This document shows positions 1-33,781 of a DNA stretch of 64,000 nucleotides, piece after piece. The notes below the pieces were generated by a model. It saw only the letters and a program-made list of their open reading frames with translations, had not been told where the DNA came from and made no database searches. This DNA comes from a virus (Duplodnaviria; Heunggongvirae; Uroviricota; Caudoviricetes). Numbering within the stretch: position 1 is the first letter of the stretch; the number at the start of each line of letters is the position of its first letter. The stretch is from IMG/VR virus record IMGVR_UViG_2609460332_000008. One strand, 5' to 3'. A program made the translations under genes and the position numbers.

Positions 1-206
1 TTTATGCTCTTAACCAGGCAGAAGGAGTCGAGTTTGGGACTGTAACGGAAAAAGACGGTGTCTATAGCGCGACAGTAACTTCAAAACGAGCTGGTAAGAT
101 TACTATCGGTGTTAAATCTGATAGTCATGATTTCTCAGGTGTTAAGAAAGAAATCACCTTTATTGAGGACCGGCAGCAGGTTACATTCTCTCAGTTTGAA
201 GCCAGC
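1..206 (+). pseudogene. Host Ig-like-repeat adhesin gene (invasin/intimin-like), upstream segment, interrupted by the Mu-like prophage; gene start lies outside the window
   Basis: Open frame runs to position 206 and resumes in the same frame at 33777 once the prophage and one TSD copy are removed; the TGA at 207-209 is created by the Mu end. Confidence 0.75.
202..206. repeat. 5-bp target-site duplication CCAGC, copy at the Mu right end
   Basis: CCAGC immediately outside the Mu-type terminus TGAAGCGGCGCACGAAAAACGCGAAA; identical pentamer at 33777..33781. Confidence 0.85.
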
Positions 207-21660: not shown

Positions 21661-22238
21661 GCGCTAATCCCCAGAAGTTCACGTTTGATGGTGTCAGCCG
21701 CACCGCCTGACAGACCGCCCGTTCTGACCAGTTCTTCGGTTTTCTCTGCCATCTCCTGCGCAAACGCATCGCGGATCGCTTTCTCGCGTTTATGGCTGGT
21801 CATGGCTGCCGCTTCCAGACGTTGGGCAACCAGCGCCAGTTGGCCCAGCGCCTTCGGTGCAACAGGTTTGTCATCTTCTGCCATCGACATGGACGTTTCA
21901 AAGGCCAGCGTTTTTACAAACTCCATCAGCAGCTTGCCGACGTCTGACGTCGGCGCGGAACCCAGCTTTGCCGCCCAGACTTCGGCCATTTCGCGGGAGG
22001 CGCGGATTTTGGCCCCGACTTTTTCCATGCGGATGGCATAGCGGTTTAAGCCCGTCCGGCTTAACTGCATCTCTTCCGGCAGGTTATGTTCGTCAATCAG
22101 GGCGTTGATGGCTTCGCGGATTTCTTCCTGTGTGTGCCGCTTTTCCCGCAGCATCTGATGCAACTGCTCCCGGATGCTGTCCGGGAGTAAATCCACTTTG
22201 GAAAGACGGCCACGGGTGGGGCGTTGTTCATTTTCCAT
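21657..22238 (-). CDS. Terminase small subunit-like protein (Mu gp27-like)
   Basis: AGGAGGG RBS before the ATG at 22238; overlaps the large terminase start. Confidence 0.7.
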   Translation of the reverse strand: MENEQRPTRGRLSKVDLLPDSIREQLHQMLREKRHTQEEIREAINALIDEHNLPEEMQLSRTGLNRYAIRMEKVGAKIRASREMAEVWAAKLGSAPTSDVGKLLMEFVKTLAFETSMSMAEDDKPVAPKALGQLALVAQRLEAAAMTSHKREKAIRDAFAQEMAEKTEELVRTGGLSGGAADTIKRELLGISA

Positions 22239-22675
22239 GTGTGCCCTCCTGTTGCTCACTACGCTGTGAACTTTCGTATGCAGATTTCAGCGCGCCACTC
22301 TGGATTTCACGCCATGTCAGGTTGTGCGCCAGACGGCGGAGTTCATCACGGGACGCTTTACTTATCGGATTCTTTTTACGGTTCACGACGGCCCCCGTCT
22401 TCAGTTCCCGGTGTTTTCAGACCGGCGTATATTTCTTCGCGAACGGAGCGGATATCCTTACCCAGCAGCTTCCACAGCCGCGCACATGCCGGTGATGAAC
22501 GCAGGGCACGTTTCATGGGGGTATCCGGTGCATCCGGGTTCCAGGGCTTTCCGGTCTGTTGTTCGTATGCACGGACAATGGCGTTTTGCTCAATATCTGC
22601 CAGCACAAGGCAGTACGCCAGTTGCCGCACGACGGCCCGTTCTCCGCGACTTAACGGCTTCAGTTTTCGGGCCAT
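22239..22675 (-). pseudogene. Mu gp26-like gene apparently split by a +1 frameshift at a G5 tract
   Basis: The 99-aa ORF (22376..22675) stops just after a GGGGG run (plus-strand CCCCC at 22392..22396); the +1 frame then runs ~60 codons to a stop overlapping the terminase small subunit ATG. Confidence 0.5.
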
Positions 22676-22677
22676 GC

Positions 22678-22971
22678 TCAGTCCCTCGCACGGGGTTTTT
22701 TAACGCCCGGAACGCTGGACAGGCCGTTTGCCACATCCTCGCCGCTGCCGGTGATTTCAGCCACGTAACAGCCGCCCACATCAGACAGACGAACCAGCCC
22801 CTGCTCGCGCAGCCATGCAAGCTGGGTGCGCACCACATCACGGGATACCTTATGACCGTAGGCCTGAAGGCAGGTCTGCAACACGGATTCATTCGCGCTG
22901 TCGCCACAGTCCAGCAGGGAACGCAGCAACACAAGACGACGGTCTTCAGTGAGGATCTCTTTCATCGCCAT
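22678..22971 (-). CDS. Small phage protein, possible winged-helix
   Basis: 97-aa ORF in the late region. Confidence 0.45.
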   Translation of the reverse strand: MAMKEILTEDRRLVLLRSLLDCGDSANESVLQTCLQAYGHKVSRDVVRTQLAWLREQGLVRLSDVGGCYVAEITGSGEDVANGLSSVPGVKKPRARD

Positions 22972-23276
22972 TATTTTTTTTCCTTTAACTCGTTCTCTAA
23001 TAACAAATCGCTGATGCGGGATACCTGGCGGATGGATGGCCCCAGCTCTTTGATTTCTCCCCGCAGGTTGCTGATATCCAGTTGCAGGCGGTGGAACTCA
23101 TCACGGTCGGGTAAATGGTGTACCTGGCTTTCCATCACCGACATGCGGGAACGGAGTGAATCAAACTCTTCGCGTTTGACGTAGGTTTTCGCCAGAATCA
23201 GCTGAAGCAGGTTTATTCCTGTCATCAGCAATGCCCACAGAATGGGCCAGTTGGCTCTGATCATTTCCCAGGACAC
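22971..23276 (-). CDS. Membrane-anchored coiled-coil protein; possible lysis accessory (i-spanin-like or releasin-like)
   Basis: N-terminal hydrophobic segment followed by a predicted helical region. Confidence 0.45.
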   Translation of the reverse strand: MSWEMIRANWPILWALLMTGINLLQLILAKTYVKREEFDSLRSRMSVMESQVHHLPDRDEFHRLQLDISNLRGEIKELGPSIRQVSRISDLLLENELKEKK

Positions 23277-23488
23277 GTTTTCCTCCTGCGTTCCCGCATC
23301 TGCTGACAGTCAATACAGGTCACCACATCCGGCAGCGCCGCAAGGCGCTGTGCCGGAATAACGTTCCCGCAGTCATTGCAGAAGCCCCGGCTGTGGGGCG
23401 CTTCTTTTGCCCGCGTCTGCCAGGCTTTAACGACGCTCTGACGCTCGTTCAGAACCACTTCACTGATGCGGTCGATTTCGTCGGTCAT
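23261..23488 (-). CDS. TraR/DksA-family C4 zinc-finger protein
   Basis: CNDCGNVIPAQR...CIDC motif in a 75-aa protein. Confidence 0.7.
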   Translation of the reverse strand: MTDEIDRISEVVLNERQSVVKAWQTRAKEAPHSRGFCNDCGNVIPAQRLAALPDVVTCIDCQQMRERRRKTCPGK

Positions 23489-24093
23489 TTCGGCCCCGCA
23501 GACATTTTGTGACGGCTCGATTTGCTGTAACGGGCAAAACCGTCAAGGGTTCTTACGCCGAGATAGCCCAGCGCCGGGGTAAGCAACATCAGCGTGATAT
23601 CCCAGTCCGGTGACGGCATATGCAGCGAGATACCTCTGGCACAGGCAATGGCTCCGGCAATCTGGCCGCAGGAGAGCAACAGCACATAGGCCAGACTGCT
23701 GTAACAGGAAAGGCGGGCCAGCAGCGGGCGCGTCTGGCGCACATAGCTGTCCGTGGCGTTGTCACCATTGCGGATGGTTTCCTGCTGTTCGTGGTGTGCG
23801 GCCTGCTGGTCAGCCAGCACCAGCTTCTGCCGTTCCACCTCCAGCTGTTGCAGCTGAATTTTCAGGGTTTCCAGTTGCACCAGTTGCTCCGGTGACAGCA
23901 TCACCAGTTTTTGTTCCAGAATGCGTTGCTGTTCAGCAACGGGAAGGCTTTCCCGGACGCTTTCCACCATACCGGCCACCGAGTCAGCGGCGGCAGATGT
24001 ACTGCCACCAAACCAGCGCCCGACGGAACGAATCAGCCCCGGCCCGGCTTTCAGCAGAACAGAGGCGATGCCTGAAAGGGTTAACGGATCCAC
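23485..24093 (-). CDS. Putative holin-like membrane protein; start inferred at an internal GTG
   Basis: C-terminal hydrophobic segments; GGAGG RBS 7 nt before the GTG overlapping the upstream stop. Confidence 0.5.
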   Translation of the reverse strand: MDPLTLSGIASVLLKAGPGLIRSVGRWFGGSTSAAADSVAGMVESVRESLPVAEQQRILEQKLVMLSPEQLVQLETLKIQLQQLEVERQKLVLADQQAAHHEQQETIRNGDNATDSYVRQTRPLLARLSCYSSLAYVLLLSCGQIAGAIACARGISLHMPSPDWDITLMLLTPALGYLGVRTLDGFARYSKSSRHKMSAGPK

Positions 24094-24494
24094 GGGAAAC
24101 CTCCATACAGATAACGCTGAAGACAGAGCAGACCGCCGCAACTGCCACCACACAGCCAGAACACCGGATGCACCGGTGACATCATCATCAGCGTGCTGAA
24201 GACGCAGCAGAAATATCCCAGCGCCCAGACCACCCATGACCACACGATGATGTGGCGACCAAAAGCCCGGTAACGGACCTCAGGCAGCAGGCGAAATGGC
24301 ACATTCCCGAGGCTTGCGCTGTATGAAAACAACACCACCCCGGCAAAGGACAACAACATCAACACGAACGATCGCCAGCCACATAACATGCTGATGATGA
24401 ACATGCAGAGTGTCAGTCCGGCCAGCGGCCATGGGGTTCTCATCAGTCGGGAACAAAGCAGCCAGTCACACAGTTTTAAAATTTTGTTCATTAC
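24081..24494 (-). CDS. Multi-pass membrane protein in the lysis cassette
   Basis: Several hydrophobic helices; AAGG RBS before MNKILKL... Confidence 0.5.
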   Translation of the reverse strand, partial: VMNKILKLCDWLLCSRLMRTPWPLAGLTLCMFIISMLCGWRSFVLMLLSFAGVVLFSYSASLGNVPFRLLPEVRYRAFGRHIIVWSWVVWALGYFCCVFSTLMMMSPVHPVFWLCGGSCGGLLCLQRYLYGGFPWIR

Positions 24495-24717
24495 CTTTTT
24501 CCACATTGAATTTTTCCCTGTACTTCTGGCACTGCCAGAAAATGTCCCGTGTATCCACGGAGTTCCAGCCACGCATGTAGTAGCTGGCGTGTGTGCCGTC
24601 ATGGCCGGTATAGTCCAGCGGTTTCGGGGGCGGACCTCCGGCCATGCGGTGCAGAACCTCCTGACGCAGGCGGTCACGCCGCCCGGCTTTCAGTGAGGCA
24701 TCCCAGCCTTTGCCCAT
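24466..24717 (-). CDS. Hypothetical protein coupled to the endolysin gene
   Basis: ATG one nt after the endolysin stop (TGAtATG). Confidence 0.4.
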   Translation of the reverse strand: MGKGWDASLKAGRRDRLRQEVLHRMAGGPPPKPLDYTGHDGTHASYYMRGWNSVDTRDIFWQCQKYREKFNVEKGNEQNFKTV

Positions 24718-24718
24718 A

Positions 24719-25315
24719 TCACCCCCGCGTGGCGGACATGATGCCCAGAGGGGTATCGATGATTTCCAGACAGGCGTCGGTCAGTTTTTCCATGCGGTTA
24801 AACCAGCCGTTCAGGTATTTACCCTGGGCGGGTTTTGACTTGATGATGTCGGCATAAAAGCGGGAACGACGGACAATGCAGCGGGCCAGCAACCAGTCCG
24901 GGGTGAACAGACTCACGGCCTTACGGGTACGTGGGCCGATGATGCCGTCAGCATCCACATCAGCGGCTTCCTGCAAAATTTTGATGGCTTTTTTAACGCC
25001 ATGCTGAACCGCTGCATCGAACACAAACATCGCCACGCCATCAGGCCACTGGTCACATCCGGCAGGCAGCCAGTAATCGCGCCAGTAAATCTGCGCGACC
25101 TGTTCGCGGGTTAAATCCTTAATGCGGGTATCCGGTTTGCCGTCGCCGTTGACATCGGTTTTGCCGTCAATCACACCGTCGCGGCGGTCAGAAATGCCGT
25201 ATTTGGTTTCGCCGCCACGGTCAGTGGGGTCATTGACATAGACGCCTTCGATATCGGGACGCAGAATGAAATTCAGCGCATGCTCAAAGGCCGGGGAGAA
25301 TTTTTGATTTTCCAT
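24719..25315 (-). CDS. Endolysin, GH108-type muramidase with peptidoglycan-binding domain
   Basis: ...DPTDRGGETKYGIS... N-terminal motif typical of GH108 followed by a PG-binding-like region. Confidence 0.7.
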   Translation of the reverse strand: MENQKFSPAFEHALNFILRPDIEGVYVNDPTDRGGETKYGISDRRDGVIDGKTDVNGDGKPDTRIKDLTREQVAQIYWRDYWLPAGCDQWPDGVAMFVFDAAVQHGVKKAIKILQEAADVDADGIIGPRTRKAVSLFTPDWLLARCIVRRSRFYADIIKSKPAQGKYLNGWFNRMEKLTDACLEIIDTPLGIMSATRG

Positions 25316-25370
25316 AAAAGCACCTGTGAAGCAGATTTAAACGTGGTCTGCTTCATGGTGCCGGAGGCAT

Positions 25371-25396
25371 AAAAAAAGCCGGATTTACCGGCTTCA
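25371..25396 (-). promoter_or_regulatory. Dyad element, copy 2, about 60 bp upstream of the endolysin gene and just after mor
   Basis: Identical to 17636..17661; minus strand reads AAGCCGGTAAATCCGGCTTTTTTT. Confidence 0.6.
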
Positions 25397-25400
25397 TTGA

Positions 25401-25850
25401 TTAAGGGCGTCGTGGCGGACGACGAACGGGGTGAGGCAGGTTCGGGGAGGGGTAAAACAAATCCGGCTGGTATTTATTGCGCTCCAGACGTCGCATCCGT
25501 TTGATGGCCTTGTAGACGGTTTTATACGTCACCCCGTAACGCTGAACCAGTTCAGGAATATTATGGCCGTTAAAATCACGCCAGATACGCATATCCCGGA
25601 CAAGATTCTCCAGAATATTCCCCCTCGGAACATAAACCTGCATCCCGCCGATATGGCGACAAATCGCCACAACCAGCTCAAGGGAATGGGCAGGGTCTGC
25701 ACCAATCCGGGCCAGTTCTTTACGCAGCAGTGCGTTCAGTTCAGAAAGTAACGCCGGATAAGCGGTGTTTTCCTGGTAATCATGAAGATATTCCAGAACG
25801 CTGTCGTCCCGAAGGTCTTCGAATAAATCCTGCTCTTTCATCTGTTTCAT
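25401..25850 (-). CDS. mor: Mor/C-family transcription activator
   Basis: Matches the Mor/C family as I recall it (DLFEDLRDD..., ...GVTYKTVYKAIKRMRRL... HTH); sits directly after gemA. Confidence 0.8.
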   Translation of the reverse strand: MKQMKEQDLFEDLRDDSVLEYLHDYQENTAYPALLSELNALLRKELARIGADPAHSLELVVAICRHIGGMQVYVPRGNILENLVRDMRIWRDFNGHNIPELVQRYGVTYKTVYKAIKRMRRLERNKYQPDLFYPSPNLPHPVRRPPRRP

Positions 25851-33599: not shown

Positions 33600-33776
33600 A
33601 TTGCTTTTCGTATGTTTAATGAAACAAAAGCCATTTCTAACAATCTTTCGCGTTTCAATGCTTAACGGCTAAAATTTGCTCTACAGGCTTGCAAGCCCCA
33701 CCAAATCTAATCCCGTCAAATCCCGAATAATCCAATATCCTCCCGGTTTTTTTCGTACTTCTCGTGAATCAATACA
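33600..33776. promoter_or_regulatory. Mu left end (attL) with L1-type transposase-binding sequence
   Basis: Reverse complement reads TGTATTGATTCACGAGAAGTACGAAAAAAACCGGGAGGATATTGGATTATTCGGGATTTGACGGG..., ~93% identical to the Mu left end as recalled. Confidence 0.8.
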
Positions 33777-33781
33777 CCAGC
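33777..33781. repeat. 5-bp target-site duplication CCAGC, copy at the Mu left end
   Basis: Identical to 202..206. Confidence 0.85.

What the first reader, a model, noticed from the sequence alone, without database searches (positions are those of the whole stretch)
22678..25315. Non-Mu-type lysis cassette in the Mu-like prophage
The endolysin is a GH108-type muramidase with a PG-binding domain, not the Mu lysozyme type. It is followed by a coupled 83-aa unknown, a multi-pass membrane protein, a protein with C-terminal hydrophobic segments, a TraR-like zinc finger and a membrane-anchored coiled-coil protein. No clear Rz/Rz1-type nested spanin pair is visible; the coiled-coil membrane protein could be an i-spanin-like or releasin-like component.
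Basis: inference. Interest (0 to 1): 0.4.

Follow-up and report, generated by a model that had tools for sequence, protein, structure and literature searches.

The report
Mu-like prophage holin–endolysin lysis module
This is the cell-bursting gene block of an intact Mu-like prophage in E. coli: it keeps Mu's gene backbone, swaps Mu's own lysis enzymes for a soluble muramidase plus a gene-transfer-agent-type holin, has no recognisable outer-membrane "spanin", and belongs to a widespread lineage whose outline is already published.

Summary
The window is 100% identical to E. coli KFu019. The prophage spans 207–33776, with Mu-type ends and a 5-bp target duplication.

"Non-Mu-type" is only half right.
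- **Shared with Mu:** the 83-aa protein is a Mu gp18 homologue (69% identity), and the coiled-coil membrane protein is DUF2730, the family of Mu gp25 releasin. gp26, gp27, Mor and the hairpin between mor and gp18 are also Mu-like.
- **Different from Mu:** a soluble GH108/PG_binding_3 muramidase replaces Mu's SAR lysozyme. A 202-aa protein sits where Mu has gp20, C, lys and gp23/23.1.

The 202-aa protein is a divergent GTA_holin_3TM member, the family of RcGTA rcc00556 and ICP1 TeaA, and is my best holin candidate.

No spanin exists. Only three proteins in the prophage have transmembrane segments, and lipobox scans that recover Mu gp23.1 find nothing conserved here or in about 90 related cassettes.

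The same architecture occurs in 46 of 5,426 complete E. coli genomes, in other Enterobacterales, and in plaque-forming Vibrio Mu-like phages. The GH108–DUF2730 pairing is already tabulated by Chamblee et al. 2022. I rate it a new member of a known kind, of modest interest.

The parts
25401..25850 (-). Mor-family transcription activator (149 aa), the only Mor/C-family gene in the prophage
   Evidence: PF08765 3.6e-30. 63% identical to Mu Mor and 32% to Mu C. PGAP annotates a single Mor-family gene.
25316..25400 (-). Intergenic control region. Hairpin GAAGCCGGTAAATCCGGCTTT plus a T7 run at 25375-25395, the counterpart of the Mu sequence between mor and gp18. Inferred early terminator and Mor-dependent promoter for the lysis genes.
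   Evidence: The terminator scan finds the hairpin. The alignment with Mu and three divergent E. coli cassettes conserves about 35 nt. An exact second copy lies at 17641-17659 upstream of the protease/scaffold gene, with 0 copies expected by chance. The promoter function is inferred from my recollection of the Mu middle promoter (Pm) literature and was not tested.
24719..25315 (-). Soluble endolysin: GH108 muramidase domain plus PG_binding_3 domain (198 aa)
   Evidence: PF05838 1e-23, PF09374 1.2e-16. phrog_315 endolysin 3e-55. PDB 2IKB 1e-19. No TMD. It is the only muralytic gene annotated in the prophage.
24466..24717 (-). Mu gp18 homologue (83 aa, soluble, three predicted helices); function unknown
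24081..24491 (-). Fast-evolving 136-aa protein with 3-4 TMDs at the position of Mu gp19, with a possible dual start (ATG at 24506 and at 24491). Role unknown; possibly a holin modulator.
   Evidence: TMD scan. phrog_12596. Only close homologues are found by sequence. Positional orthologues in nine loci are 18-40% identical. hhalign against Mu gp19 gives probability 23%, E 9e-4, with a shared F-C-G-W-R motif. The gene is absent from the Vibrio and Shewanella cassettes.
23485..24093 (-). 202-aa divergent GTA_holin_3TM-family protein, the inferred holin
   Evidence: PF11351 scores 19 bits, below the 24.8 cut-off. Of 77 remote homologues, 33 hit PF11351, best 8.4e-9. AF2 pLDDT 91, all-helical. The top Foldseek BFVD hit is 'Holin of 3TMs', E 4e-7. 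hhalign to ICP1 ORF137 gives probability 87%. Three conserved hydrophobic segments lie at 1-25, 125-153 and 161-181.
23261..23488 (-). TraR/DksA-type C4 zinc-finger protein (75 aa) at the position of Mu gp24
   Evidence: PF01258 7e-11. TIGR02419 61.5 bits against a cut-off of 59.7. Present in all relatives. Mu gp24 has a CxxC...CxxC motif, but no significant match was found.
22971..23276 (-). DUF2730 protein (101 aa; Mu gp25 releasin family): N-terminal TMD and cytoplasmic coiled coil
   Evidence: PF10805 1e-30 over the whole profile. 28% identical to Mu gp25 and 39% to the Vibrio and Shewanella DUF2730 proteins. TMD at residues 11-29.
22678..22965 (-). Mu gp26 homologue (VpaChn25_0724 family, winged-helix-like).
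   Evidence: 61% identity to Mu gp26. NF050184 7e-36.

Best explanation
This is the lysis module of an intact Mu-like myovirus prophage. It is built on the Mu middle/late backbone but uses a holin-endolysin pair instead of Mu's SAR-endolysin, releasin and spanin system.

**Proposed sequence of events**
1. The single Mor-family activator turns on a promoter at the hairpin element just upstream of the endolysin gene. This step is inferred.
2. One tightly coupled transcript then encodes, in order: a soluble GH108/PG_binding_3 muramidase that accumulates in the cytoplasm; a Mu gp18 homologue; a poorly conserved 4-TMD protein at the gp19 position; a 202-aa GTA_holin_3TM-type protein; a TraR-type zinc finger; DUF2730; gp26; and the terminase genes.
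3. The 202-aa protein is the holin. It inserts with a weak N-terminal TMD and a C-terminal TMD hairpin, with its long acidic helical domain in the cytoplasm. At a set time it permeabilises the inner membrane and lets the muramidase reach the wall.
4. There is no spanin. Outer-membrane rupture either follows passively or uses an unidentified factor.
5. DUF2730 cannot act as in Mu, because there is no SAR endolysin to release. Its most likely role is to modulate the membrane step, that is, the holin.

**Shown:** gene content, homologies, synteny, absence of a spanin.
**Inferred:** holin activity, promoter function, membrane topology, and any role for gp18, the 4-TMD protein or DUF2730.
For: - **Endolysin.** Domain hits are above the cut-offs and there is no TMD.
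- **202-aa protein.** Homology to GTA_holin_3TM is transitive: 33 of 77 homologues hit the family, best 8.4e-9. Foldseek gives E 4e-7 to a 'Holin of 3TMs' protein. hhalign to ICP1 ORF137 gives probability 87%. Three hydrophobic segments are conserved across the family, with positive charge before TM2 and after TM3.
- **Experimental support for the family.** RcGTA rcc00556 is required for release (PMC5026251). ICP1 TeaA collapses the PMF and is triggered by DNP (10.1101/790493).
- **Relatives with fewer candidates.** In plaque-forming Vibrio Mu-like phages and in Shewanella MuM16-2, the same cassette lacks the 4-TMD gene. The ~200-aa protein is then the only multi-TMD candidate next to the soluble GH108.
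- **Conserved architecture.** Mor-GH108-gp18-(4TM)-holin-TraR-DUF2730-gp26 occurs in 63 of 80 IMG/VR loci; the remaining 17 have the same order minus one or more genes, many at contig ends. None contains Mu lys or gp23.
- **Mu homologies and the Pm-like hairpin.**
- **The prophage is intact.** Mu-type ends and a 5-bp duplication.
- **No spanin.**, with Mu gp23.1 recovered as a positive control.
Against: - This protein itself scores below Pfam's gathering threshold for PF11351 (19 against 24.8 bits). The hhalign match to ICP1 ORF137 covers only 49 N-terminal columns, and I assumed rather than verified that ORF137 is TeaA.
- The N-terminal segment is only weakly hydrophobic (mean KD about 1.0-1.3), so the 3-TMD topology is uncertain.
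- In the Janthinobacterium phage Donnerlittchen, a homologue follows a separately annotated holin and an endolysin. The family therefore need not always be the primary holin.
- The 4-TMD protein, with a possible lambda-S-like dual start, is an alternative holin.
- No experiment exists for any member of this Mu-like subfamily.
- My TMD and lipobox scans are simple rule-based scripts, not TMHMM or LipoP.
Confidence: 0.6

Rival explanations
1. The 136-aa 4-TMD protein is the real holin, perhaps with a holin/antiholin pair from its two in-frame starts (MWKKVM...). The 202-aa protein would then be an accessory factor or antiholin.
For: It is a small multi-TMD protein two genes downstream of the endolysin. 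It has two in-frame ATGs five codons apart with lysines between them, and the L002 orthologue has MHRM. The Janthinobacterium phage shows that a 202-aa homologue can coexist with another annotated holin.
Against: The gene is absent from the otherwise identical cassettes of plaque-forming Vibrio phages and Shewanella MuM16-2, and it is not detected in 8 of the IMG/VR loci that extend upstream of the 202-aa gene. It occupies the Mu gp19 position and shares a motif with gp19. Mu gp19 showed no holin activity and is dispensable for lysis (PMC9239132). It is poorly conserved (18-40% identity) and matches no holin family.
Confidence: 0.2
2. The DUF2730 protein, or the 202-aa coiled-coil protein, is an i-spanin-like component that spans the periplasm, so the cassette has an unconventional spanin.
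For: Both proteins combine a membrane anchor with long helices. In the Janthinobacterium phage, the 202-aa homologue lies after the endolysin, where spanins often sit.
Against: Charge distribution places both coiled coils in the cytoplasm. Chamblee et al. describe all phage DUF2730 proteins as N-out/C-in and call gp25 a membrane-tethered cytoplasmic protein. No lipoprotein partner exists in any frame here or in about 90 related cassettes, while the same scan finds Mu gp23.1. No protein combines a lipobox with a C-terminal TMD and a periplasm-length domain.
Confidence: 0.04
3. Only the endolysin and one membrane protein act in lysis. gp18-like, the 4-TMD protein, TraR, DUF2730 and gp26-like are conserved Mu middle/late genes with non-lysis roles (regulation, packaging) that merely sit beside the lysis genes.
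For: In Mu, genes 18-21 were deleted from a lysis-proficient plasmid, and genes 19 and 20 can be inactivated without effect on lysis (PMC9239132). gp26-like and TraR look like nucleic-acid or RNA-polymerase binders. The E. coli WS1933D hybrid keeps GH108 and gp18 next to a complete Mu lys/spanin/gp25 set. This rival overlaps the best explanation and differs from it only on DUF2730.
Against: DUF2730 is required for lysis in Mu, and in all 34 phages surveyed it lies within five genes downstream of the endolysin gene (PMC9239132). In the loci examined, the DUF2730 subtype follows the neighbouring membrane/endolysin module: Mu-type with the SAR lysozyme, this type with the GTA-type holin. Linkage alone could explain that pattern.
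Confidence: 0.3

Closest known systems
Phage Mu middle/late region, genes mor-18-19-20-C-lys(22)-23/23.1-24-25-26-27 (Chamblee et al. 2022, PMC9239132)
   Same: Homologues: Mor (63% identity), the hairpin after mor, gp18 (69%), DUF2730/gp25 (28%), gp26 (61%) and gp27 (47%), all in the same order. A multi-TMD protein sits at the gp19 position and a C4 zinc-finger protein at the gp24 position. Membrane proteins are confined to this region.
   Different: This prophage has no C gene, no GH24 SAR endolysin, no gp20 and no gp23/23.1 spanin. It has a soluble GH108 endolysin inserted between the hairpin and gp18, and a GTA_holin_3TM-type protein where Mu has gp20-C-lys-gp23. Mu lacks a holin; this element most probably depends on one.
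Mu-like Vibrio myophages of the Nahant collection (e.g. 1.028.O, MG592412) and Martha 12B12; Shewanella phage vB_SspM_MuM16-2
   Same: Same cassette order: Mor, secreted moron, GH108/PG_binding_3, gp18-like, ~200-aa holin-like protein (40% identity), TraR, DUF2730 (39%), gp26-like, small terminase. No spanin was found. The GH108-DUF2730 pairing is already listed in Table S1 of PMC9239132.
   Different: They have no 4-TMD gene between the gp18-like and holin-like genes. They carry a moron between Mor and the endolysin that this prophage lacks. Their hosts are marine.
RcGTA lysis pair rcc00555/rcc00556 and ICP1 TeaA (GTA_holin_3TM, PF11351)
   Same: Family-level relationship of the 202-aa protein. 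It has three hydrophobic segments with a long helical domain between the first and second, and it is paired with a muramidase. NCBIfam's 'holin-associated N-acetylmuramidase' model gives a partial hit, 73 bits.
   Different: The sequence is very divergent and scores below the Pfam threshold. It sits in a transposable-phage context and is accompanied by DUF2730, gp18 and a 4-TMD protein. No antiholin homologous to ArrA was identified.
Spanin-less phages and the phiKT gp28 disruptin (10.1101/515445)
   Same: There is no i-spanin/o-spanin pair and no u-spanin. About 15% of phages of Gram-negative hosts are reported to share this state.
   Different: No small cationic amphipathic peptide is conserved in the cassette. 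The 52-aa ORF at 22228-22386 is missing from close relatives.

Membership tests
GH108 / PG_binding_3 endolysin | Glyco_hydro_108 and PG_binding_3 domains above Pfam thresholds | tested here: met
   84.0 bits (cut-off 21.2) and 61.1 bits (cut-off 24.6). PDB 2IKB 1e-19.
GH108 / PG_binding_3 endolysin | Conserved E-G-x-Y-x-N-D-P-x-D-x-G-G-x-T motif with the catalytic Glu | tested here: met
   The sequence IEGVYVNDPTDRGGETKYGI aligns to HEGGYANHPKDPGGETNWGI of 2IKB. The identity of the catalytic residue is from my own knowledge of the family.
GH108 / PG_binding_3 endolysin | Soluble (no signal peptide or SAR domain), and therefore holin-dependent | tested here: met
   The hydropathy scan finds no hydrophobic segment. 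The N-terminus MENQKFSPAFEHALNF is polar.
GTA_holin_3TM (PF11351) | Score at or above Pfam's gathering threshold | tested here: not met
   19.0 bits, E 2e-3, against a cut-off of 24.8.
GTA_holin_3TM (PF11351) | Homology supported through intermediate sequences or structure | tested here: met
   33 of 77 family representatives hit PF11351, best 8.4e-9. The top Foldseek hit is 'Holin of 3TMs', E 4e-7, probability 1.00. hhalign to ICP1 ORF137 gives probability 87%.
GTA_holin_3TM (PF11351) | Three hydrophobic segments: one N-terminal and two C-terminal | tested here: met
   Family-averaged hydropathy peaks at residues 1-25, 125-153 and 161-181. The first peak is weak.
GTA_holin_3TM (PF11351) | Holin activity: PMF collapse, triggering by energy poison, endolysin release | not testable with these tools
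   Known only for RcGTA rcc00556 and ICP1 TeaA.
DUF2730 / Mu gp25 releasin | Full-length match to PF10805, including the N-terminal TMD | tested here: met
   106.2 bits, profile positions 1-102 of 102. This is a better match than Mu gp25 itself gives (50.4 bits).
DUF2730 / Mu gp25 releasin | Encoded in a transposable phage within five genes downstream of the endolysin | tested here: met
   It is the fifth gene after the endolysin. Transposase, MuB-like ATPase, GemA and Mor are present. The criterion is from PMC9239132.
DUF2730 / Mu gp25 releasin | Partner is a SAR endolysin whose release it promotes | tested here: not met
   The only endolysin has no SAR or TMD segment. This is a family member, but releasin function in the Mu sense cannot apply.
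Two-component spanin (Rz/Rz1 type) | o-spanin: a small lipoprotein ORF with a lipobox, embedded in, overlapping or adjacent to the i-spanin gene | tested here: not met
   All-frame, all-start scans of the prophage and of about 90 related cassettes give no conserved candidate. The same scan recovers Mu gp23.1 and WS1933D LysC.
Two-component spanin (Rz/Rz1 type) | i-spanin: N-in TMD followed by a periplasmic coiled-coil domain | tested here: not met
   Only three proteins in the prophage have TMDs. Charge bias places both coiled coils in the cytoplasm. No Mu gp23 homologue is present.
Unimolecular spanin (T1 gp11 type) | N-terminal lipobox plus a C-terminal TMD in one protein of periplasm-spanning length | tested here: not met
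   The only lipobox-plus-TMD pattern is an internal in-frame start of the 202-aa gene (23742), which would leave about 20 periplasmic residues. Its Cys is absent from the ECONIH5 orthologue.
Phage_Mu_gp18 (PF26867) | Sequence homology to Mu gp18 | tested here: met
   69% identity over 72 aa, E 2e-34. 19 of the 20 homologues found carry PF26867, named Phage_Mu_gp18. This model is not in the local Pfam copy, which gave no hit.
Mu gp19 | Sequence homology to Mu gp19 | tested here: inconclusive
   hhalign probability 23%, E 9e-4 over 40 columns. Same position, similar size and TMD pattern, shared F-C-G-W-R motif. The two fall in different PHROGs.
TraR/DksA C4 zinc finger | CxxC-N17-CxxC motif and a family HMM score above the cut-off | tested here: met
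   PF01258 42.3 bits (cut-off 24.9). TIGR02419 61.5 bits (cut-off 59.7).
Mu middle promoter Pm / early terminator element | Sequence correspondence with the Mu mor-gp18 intergenic hairpin | tested here: met
   The shared sequence is AAGCCGGT(A/T)AATCCGGCTTTTTTTA. It is found as a terminator-like site.
Mu middle promoter Pm / early terminator element | Mor-dependent transcription initiation | not testable with these tools
   Inference only. The sigma-70 scan finds no consensus promoter there, as expected for an activator-dependent promoter.

The most novel reading that the evidence does not exclude
In this lineage, DUF2730 has a function different from Mu's releasin: it regulates or triggers a GTA-type holin, acting on a membrane protein rather than on a SAR endolysin. 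The phage would also breach the outer membrane with neither a spanin nor a known disruptin, through one of the conserved unknowns (gp18-like or the 4-TMD protein) or through the holin-endolysin pair alone. An intact copy sits in E. coli, so the question Chamblee et al. left open would become directly testable: what DUF2730 does next to endolysins that lack SAR domains.
Probability: 0.2. Interest if true: 0.6.

Novelty: new member of a known kind. Interest (0 to 1): 0.3.

Why it matters
The finding shows that Mu-like phages exchange the inner-membrane, cell-wall and outer-membrane parts of their lysis system as modules on a fixed backbone (Pm hairpin, gp18, gp19 position, zinc finger, DUF2730, gp26, gp27).

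It also identifies the likely holin in the whole group of Mu-like phages that pair DUF2730 with a soluble GH108 endolysin. In the parts of Chamblee et al. 2022 that I read, this group is listed but no holin or spanin is assigned to it.

The element is intact and lives in E. coli. It is therefore a convenient system for two open questions:
- What does DUF2730 do when there is no SAR endolysin?
- How do spanin-less phages open the outer membrane?

Beyond that, it is an ordinary prophage module.

Tried and rejected
1. **Embedded ORF 24188-24304** (38 aa, 'VATSSC' lipobox-like, inside the 4-TMD gene). The mature part would be only 17 aa. It occurs only in near-identical relatives and not in L002 or L003. 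Rejected as an o-spanin.
2. **Internal GTG start at 23742 of the 202-aa gene** ('LLLSC' followed by a C-terminal TMD, u-spanin-like). It is in frame with TM2 of the holin-like protein, the Cys is absent from the ECONIH5, Vibrio and Shewanella orthologues, and the periplasmic part would be too short. Rejected.
3. **The 52-aa ORF 22228-22386 as a disruptin-like peptide.** It is basic but not amphipathic or hydrophobic, and it is missing from L002 and L003. Rejected.
4. **The long ORFs of 198 aa (24081-24677) and 252 aa (23485-24243).** Orthologue alignments and PGAP support the shorter 136-aa and 202-aa forms.
5. **Homology between the 4-TMD and 202-aa families**, suggested by the composite phrog_2121. 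hhalign probability is 0.3%. Rejected.
6. **PADLOC defence families** for seven cassette proteins: no hits.
8. **Foldseek against afdb50** was not available.
9. **Mu gp24 as a TraR homologue.** No significant BLAST or Pfam match; only a shared CxxC...CxxC pattern and position.
10. **Secreted or membrane 'moron' between Mor and the endolysin in relatives** as a possible outer-membrane factor. It is highly variable, has no lipobox, lies upstream of the hairpin, and is absent from this window.
11. **Megablast against cultured phages** found only a 291-bp match, in Yersinia Mu-like phages.


Full report
**Source and context**

The window is 100% identical to the E. coli KFu019 chromosome, NZ_CP091700.1. 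PGAP annotation shows a complete Mu-like myovirus prophage between ygbI and ltnD. It has a repressor, Ner-like protein, transposase, MuB-like ATPase, Gam, GemA, one Mor-family activator, the cassette in question, terminase, portal, head, tail, and Com/Mom.

I located the ends of the prophage. The sequence TGAAGCGGCGCACGAAAAACGCG... begins at 207 and ...CGTGAATCAATACA ends at 33776. Both are flanked by the 5-bp duplication CCAGC at 202-206 and 33777-33781. These ends resemble the Mu attR and attL sequences as I recall them. The element therefore looks like an intact, fairly recent transposition insert. The rest of the window is core chromosome: mutS, hyp, hyc, asc, nor.

**Checking the observation**

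| Coordinates | Size | Identity |
|---|---|---|
| 24719-25315 | 198 aa | GH108 + PG_binding_3 endolysin |
| 24466-24717 | 83 aa | starts one nucleotide after the endolysin stop |
| 24081-24491 | 136 aa | membrane protein with 3-4 TMDs |
| 23485-24093 | 202 aa | C-terminal hydrophobic segments |
| 23261-23488 | 75 aa | TraR/DksA zinc finger |
| 22971-23276 | 101 aa | one N-terminal TMD and a coiled coil |

From the endolysin to gp27, neighbouring genes overlap or are at most 5 nt apart, so they form one translationally coupled block. The two long ORFs in the mechanical list (198 and 252 aa) are over-extensions. Orthologues and PGAP support 136 and 202 aa.

**How Mu-like the cassette is**

Direct comparison with phage Mu, NC_000929, gives these identities:

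| This prophage | Mu counterpart | Identity |
|---|---|---|
| Mor | Mor | 63% |
| 83-aa protein | gp18 | 69% (E 2e-34) |
| 101-aa protein | gp25 | 28% (E 5e-10) |
| 95-aa protein | gp26 | 61% |
| small terminase | gp27 | 47% |

- Homologues of the 83-aa protein carry the recent Pfam model PF26867, Phage_Mu_gp18. That model is not in the local Pfam copy, which explains the empty result.
- The 101-aa protein matches PF10805 (DUF2730) end to end at 1e-30. This is better than Mu gp25 itself scores.
- The 136-aa membrane protein lies exactly where Mu gp19 lies. It has a similar size and TMD pattern and shares an F-C-G-W-R motif after TM1. However, profile comparison is weak: probability 23%, E 9e-4. 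I leave that homology open.
- The TraR zinc finger sits at the gp24 position. Mu gp24 also has CxxC...CxxC, but I could not show homology.
- The 85-bp gap between mor and the endolysin contains the hairpin GAAGCCGGTAAATCCGGCTTT plus T7. It is almost identical to the Mu sequence between mor and gp18, and it is conserved in E. coli cassettes that are only 68% identical overall.

From my recollection of the Mu literature, that region holds the early terminator and the Mor-dependent middle promoter Pm. I did not verify this in a paper. An exact second copy of the 19-nt dyad, with about 38 nt of shared sequence, lies upstream of the protease/scaffold gene at 17641-17659, with none expected by chance. 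The prophage has only one Mor/C-family gene. This suggests that a single activator drives both the lysis and the head operons.

**What differs from Mu**

- Mu's block gp20-C-lys(SAR GH24)-gp23/23.1 is absent.
- The soluble GH108 enzyme is inserted directly after the hairpin.
- The 202-aa protein fills the place of the missing block.

A natural hybrid in E. coli WS1933D has Mor-GH108-gp18-C-Mu lys-gp23/LysC-gp24-gp25. This shows that the parts are exchanged as modules.

**The 202-aa protein**

On its own it scores only 19 bits against PF11351 GTA_holin_3TM, below the 24.8 cut-off. Further evidence supports the assignment:

- An exhaustive HMMER search of 1.84 billion representatives found 133 relatives.
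- Of 77 full-length relatives, 33 hit PF11351, best 8.4e-9, and no other family recurs.
- AlphaFold with that alignment gives a confident all-helical model: pLDDT 91, pTM 0.70.
- The model's best match among viral structures is annotated 'Holin of 3TMs, for gene-transfer release', E 4e-7.
- hhalign to ICP1 ORF137 gives 87% probability over the N-terminal WFGG region. I take ORF137 to be TeaA.
- Family-averaged hydropathy shows three conserved hydrophobic segments: 1-25 (weak), 125-153 and 161-181. Positive charge precedes TM2 and follows TM3, and the central helical domain is acidic. That domain is therefore predicted to be cytoplasmic.

Family members have experimental support as holins. RcGTA rcc00556 is needed for particle release. 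ICP1 TeaA collapses the PMF and is triggered by DNP.

**Relatives**

- The cassette covers at least 80% of the query in 46 of 5,426 complete E. coli genomes.
- It recurs with the same order in Klebsiella, Edwardsiella, Pectobacterium, Yersinia and Brenneria prophages.
- Of 80 IMG/VR contigs with this DUF2730 subtype, 63 have the full order Mor-GH108-gp18-4TM-holin-TraR-DUF2730-gp26. The other 17 have the same order minus one or more genes, many at contig ends. None has Mu lys or gp23.
- Plaque-forming Vibrio Mu-like phages, Martha 12B12 and Shewanella MuM16-2 have the same cassette at about 40% identity but lack the 4-TMD gene. In those phages the ~200-aa protein is the only multi-TMD protein beside a soluble GH108. 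This is the main reason I prefer it over the 4-TMD protein as the holin.
- The GH108-DUF2730 pairing in those Vibrio phages is already listed in Table S1 of Chamblee et al. 2022. The authors state that the role of DUF2730 beside non-SAR endolysins remains to be determined.

**Spanin**

- In the whole prophage, only the three cassette proteins have TMDs.
- All-frame, all-start lipobox scans found nothing credible in the prophage.
- They also found nothing conserved in eleven related cassettes, in a complete Vibrio phage genome or in 80 IMG/VR loci.
- The same script recovers Mu gp23.1 and the WS1933D LysC as positive controls.
- Both coiled-coil membrane proteins are predicted to have cytoplasmic coiled coils, so neither fits an i-spanin.

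The lineage is therefore spanin-less by these criteria. About 15% of phages are reported to share this state, and the phiKT disruptin is the one known alternative. I found no disruptin-like candidate that is conserved.

**Mechanism**

My best explanation has confidence 0.6. Mor activates the hairpin-associated promoter. The soluble muramidase accumulates in the cytoplasm. The GTA_holin_3TM-type protein permeabilises the inner membrane and releases the muramidase. Outer-membrane rupture has no dedicated known factor.

DUF2730 is a true family member, but it cannot work as in Mu because there is no SAR domain to release. It may modulate the holin, or it may have no lysis role. The gp18-like and gp19-position proteins may not be lysis proteins at all, since Mu lyses without genes 18-21. 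Rival explanations and refuting results are given in the structured fields.

**Verdict**

This is a new member of a known, widespread kind of Mu-like lysis module. What this analysis adds is the holin assignment, the homologies to Mu gp18 and the Pm region, and the consistent absence of a spanin. Interest is modest. The main value is a tractable E. coli system for the open DUF2730 and spanin-less questions.

Noticed in passing
window 17641-17659 and 25376-25394 (minus strand): The 19-nt dyad AAGCCGGTAAATCCGGCTT plus a T-run occurs twice exactly: upstream of the endolysin gene and upstream of the protease/scaffold gene. About 38 nt are shared, and none is expected by chance. The prophage has one Mor-family gene and no C gene, so one activator may serve both operons.
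   Followed up: partly
window 202-206, 207, 33776, 33777-33781: The prophage has intact Mu-type termini (TGAAGCGGCGCACGAAAAACGCG... and ...GAATCAATACA) and a 5-bp target-site duplication, CCAGC. It is inserted between ygbI and ltnD.
   Followed up: yes
window about 25130-25170 (endolysin residues about 49-61): The GH108 domain carries an insertion, DGKTDVNGDGKPD, that is absent from the Neisseria structure 2IKB and from the Vibrio and Shewanella homologues. It looks like an EF-hand or dockerin-type calcium-binding loop.
   Followed up: no
window 25316-25420; L002 4506-4985, L003 5233-5742, L004 4605-5102, L009-L015: Most relatives carry a highly variable extra gene between Mor and the hairpin. 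It encodes either a secreted 150-175-aa protein or a ~105-aa protein with 2-3 TMDs, and is probably a lysogenic-conversion or exclusion moron. It is absent here, and Mor has a different, longer C-terminus.
   Followed up: partly
L017 (E. coli WS1933D, NZ_CP035836.1): A hybrid Mu prophage with the order Mor, GH108 (75% identical), gp18, C, Mu SAR lysozyme, gp23/LysC spanin, gp24, gp25. It carries two muralytic enzymes and no GTA-type holin. Yersinia phages vB_YpM_5 and vB_YpM_6 also share 291 bp (82.5% identity) with the GH108 gene.
   Followed up: partly
window 24491-24506: The 4-TMD gene has two in-frame ATG codons (MWKKVMNK...), and an orthologue has MHRM. This resembles the lambda S107/S105 dual-start motif.
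   Followed up: no
window 23485-24717 (PHROG hits): phrog_2121, a 284-column profile, is hit strongly by three unrelated neighbouring proteins (gp18-like, 4-TMD, 202-aa) at different columns. It appears to be a composite profile. hhalign shows no homology between the 4-TMD and 202-aa families.
   Followed up: yes
L002 2591-3199 (WP_032239570.1): PGAP names an orthologue of the 202-aa protein 'twin-arginine translocase TatA/TatE family subunit'. This is probably a spurious label caused by the N-terminal hydrophobic helix followed by an amphipathic helix.
   Followed up: no
L008 (Janthinobacterium phage Donnerlittchen) 1708-2962: In a non-Mu siphophage, a 179-aa homologue of the 202-aa protein follows an annotated 'holin protein III' and an LD-endopeptidase endolysin, at the place where spanins usually sit. 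No spanin is annotated there.
   Followed up: no
window 22228-22675: Two small ORFs (99 aa, phrog_8988; and 52 aa) lie between gp26-like and gp27. They have no counterpart in Mu. The 52-aa ORF is missing from several close relatives.
   Followed up: partly
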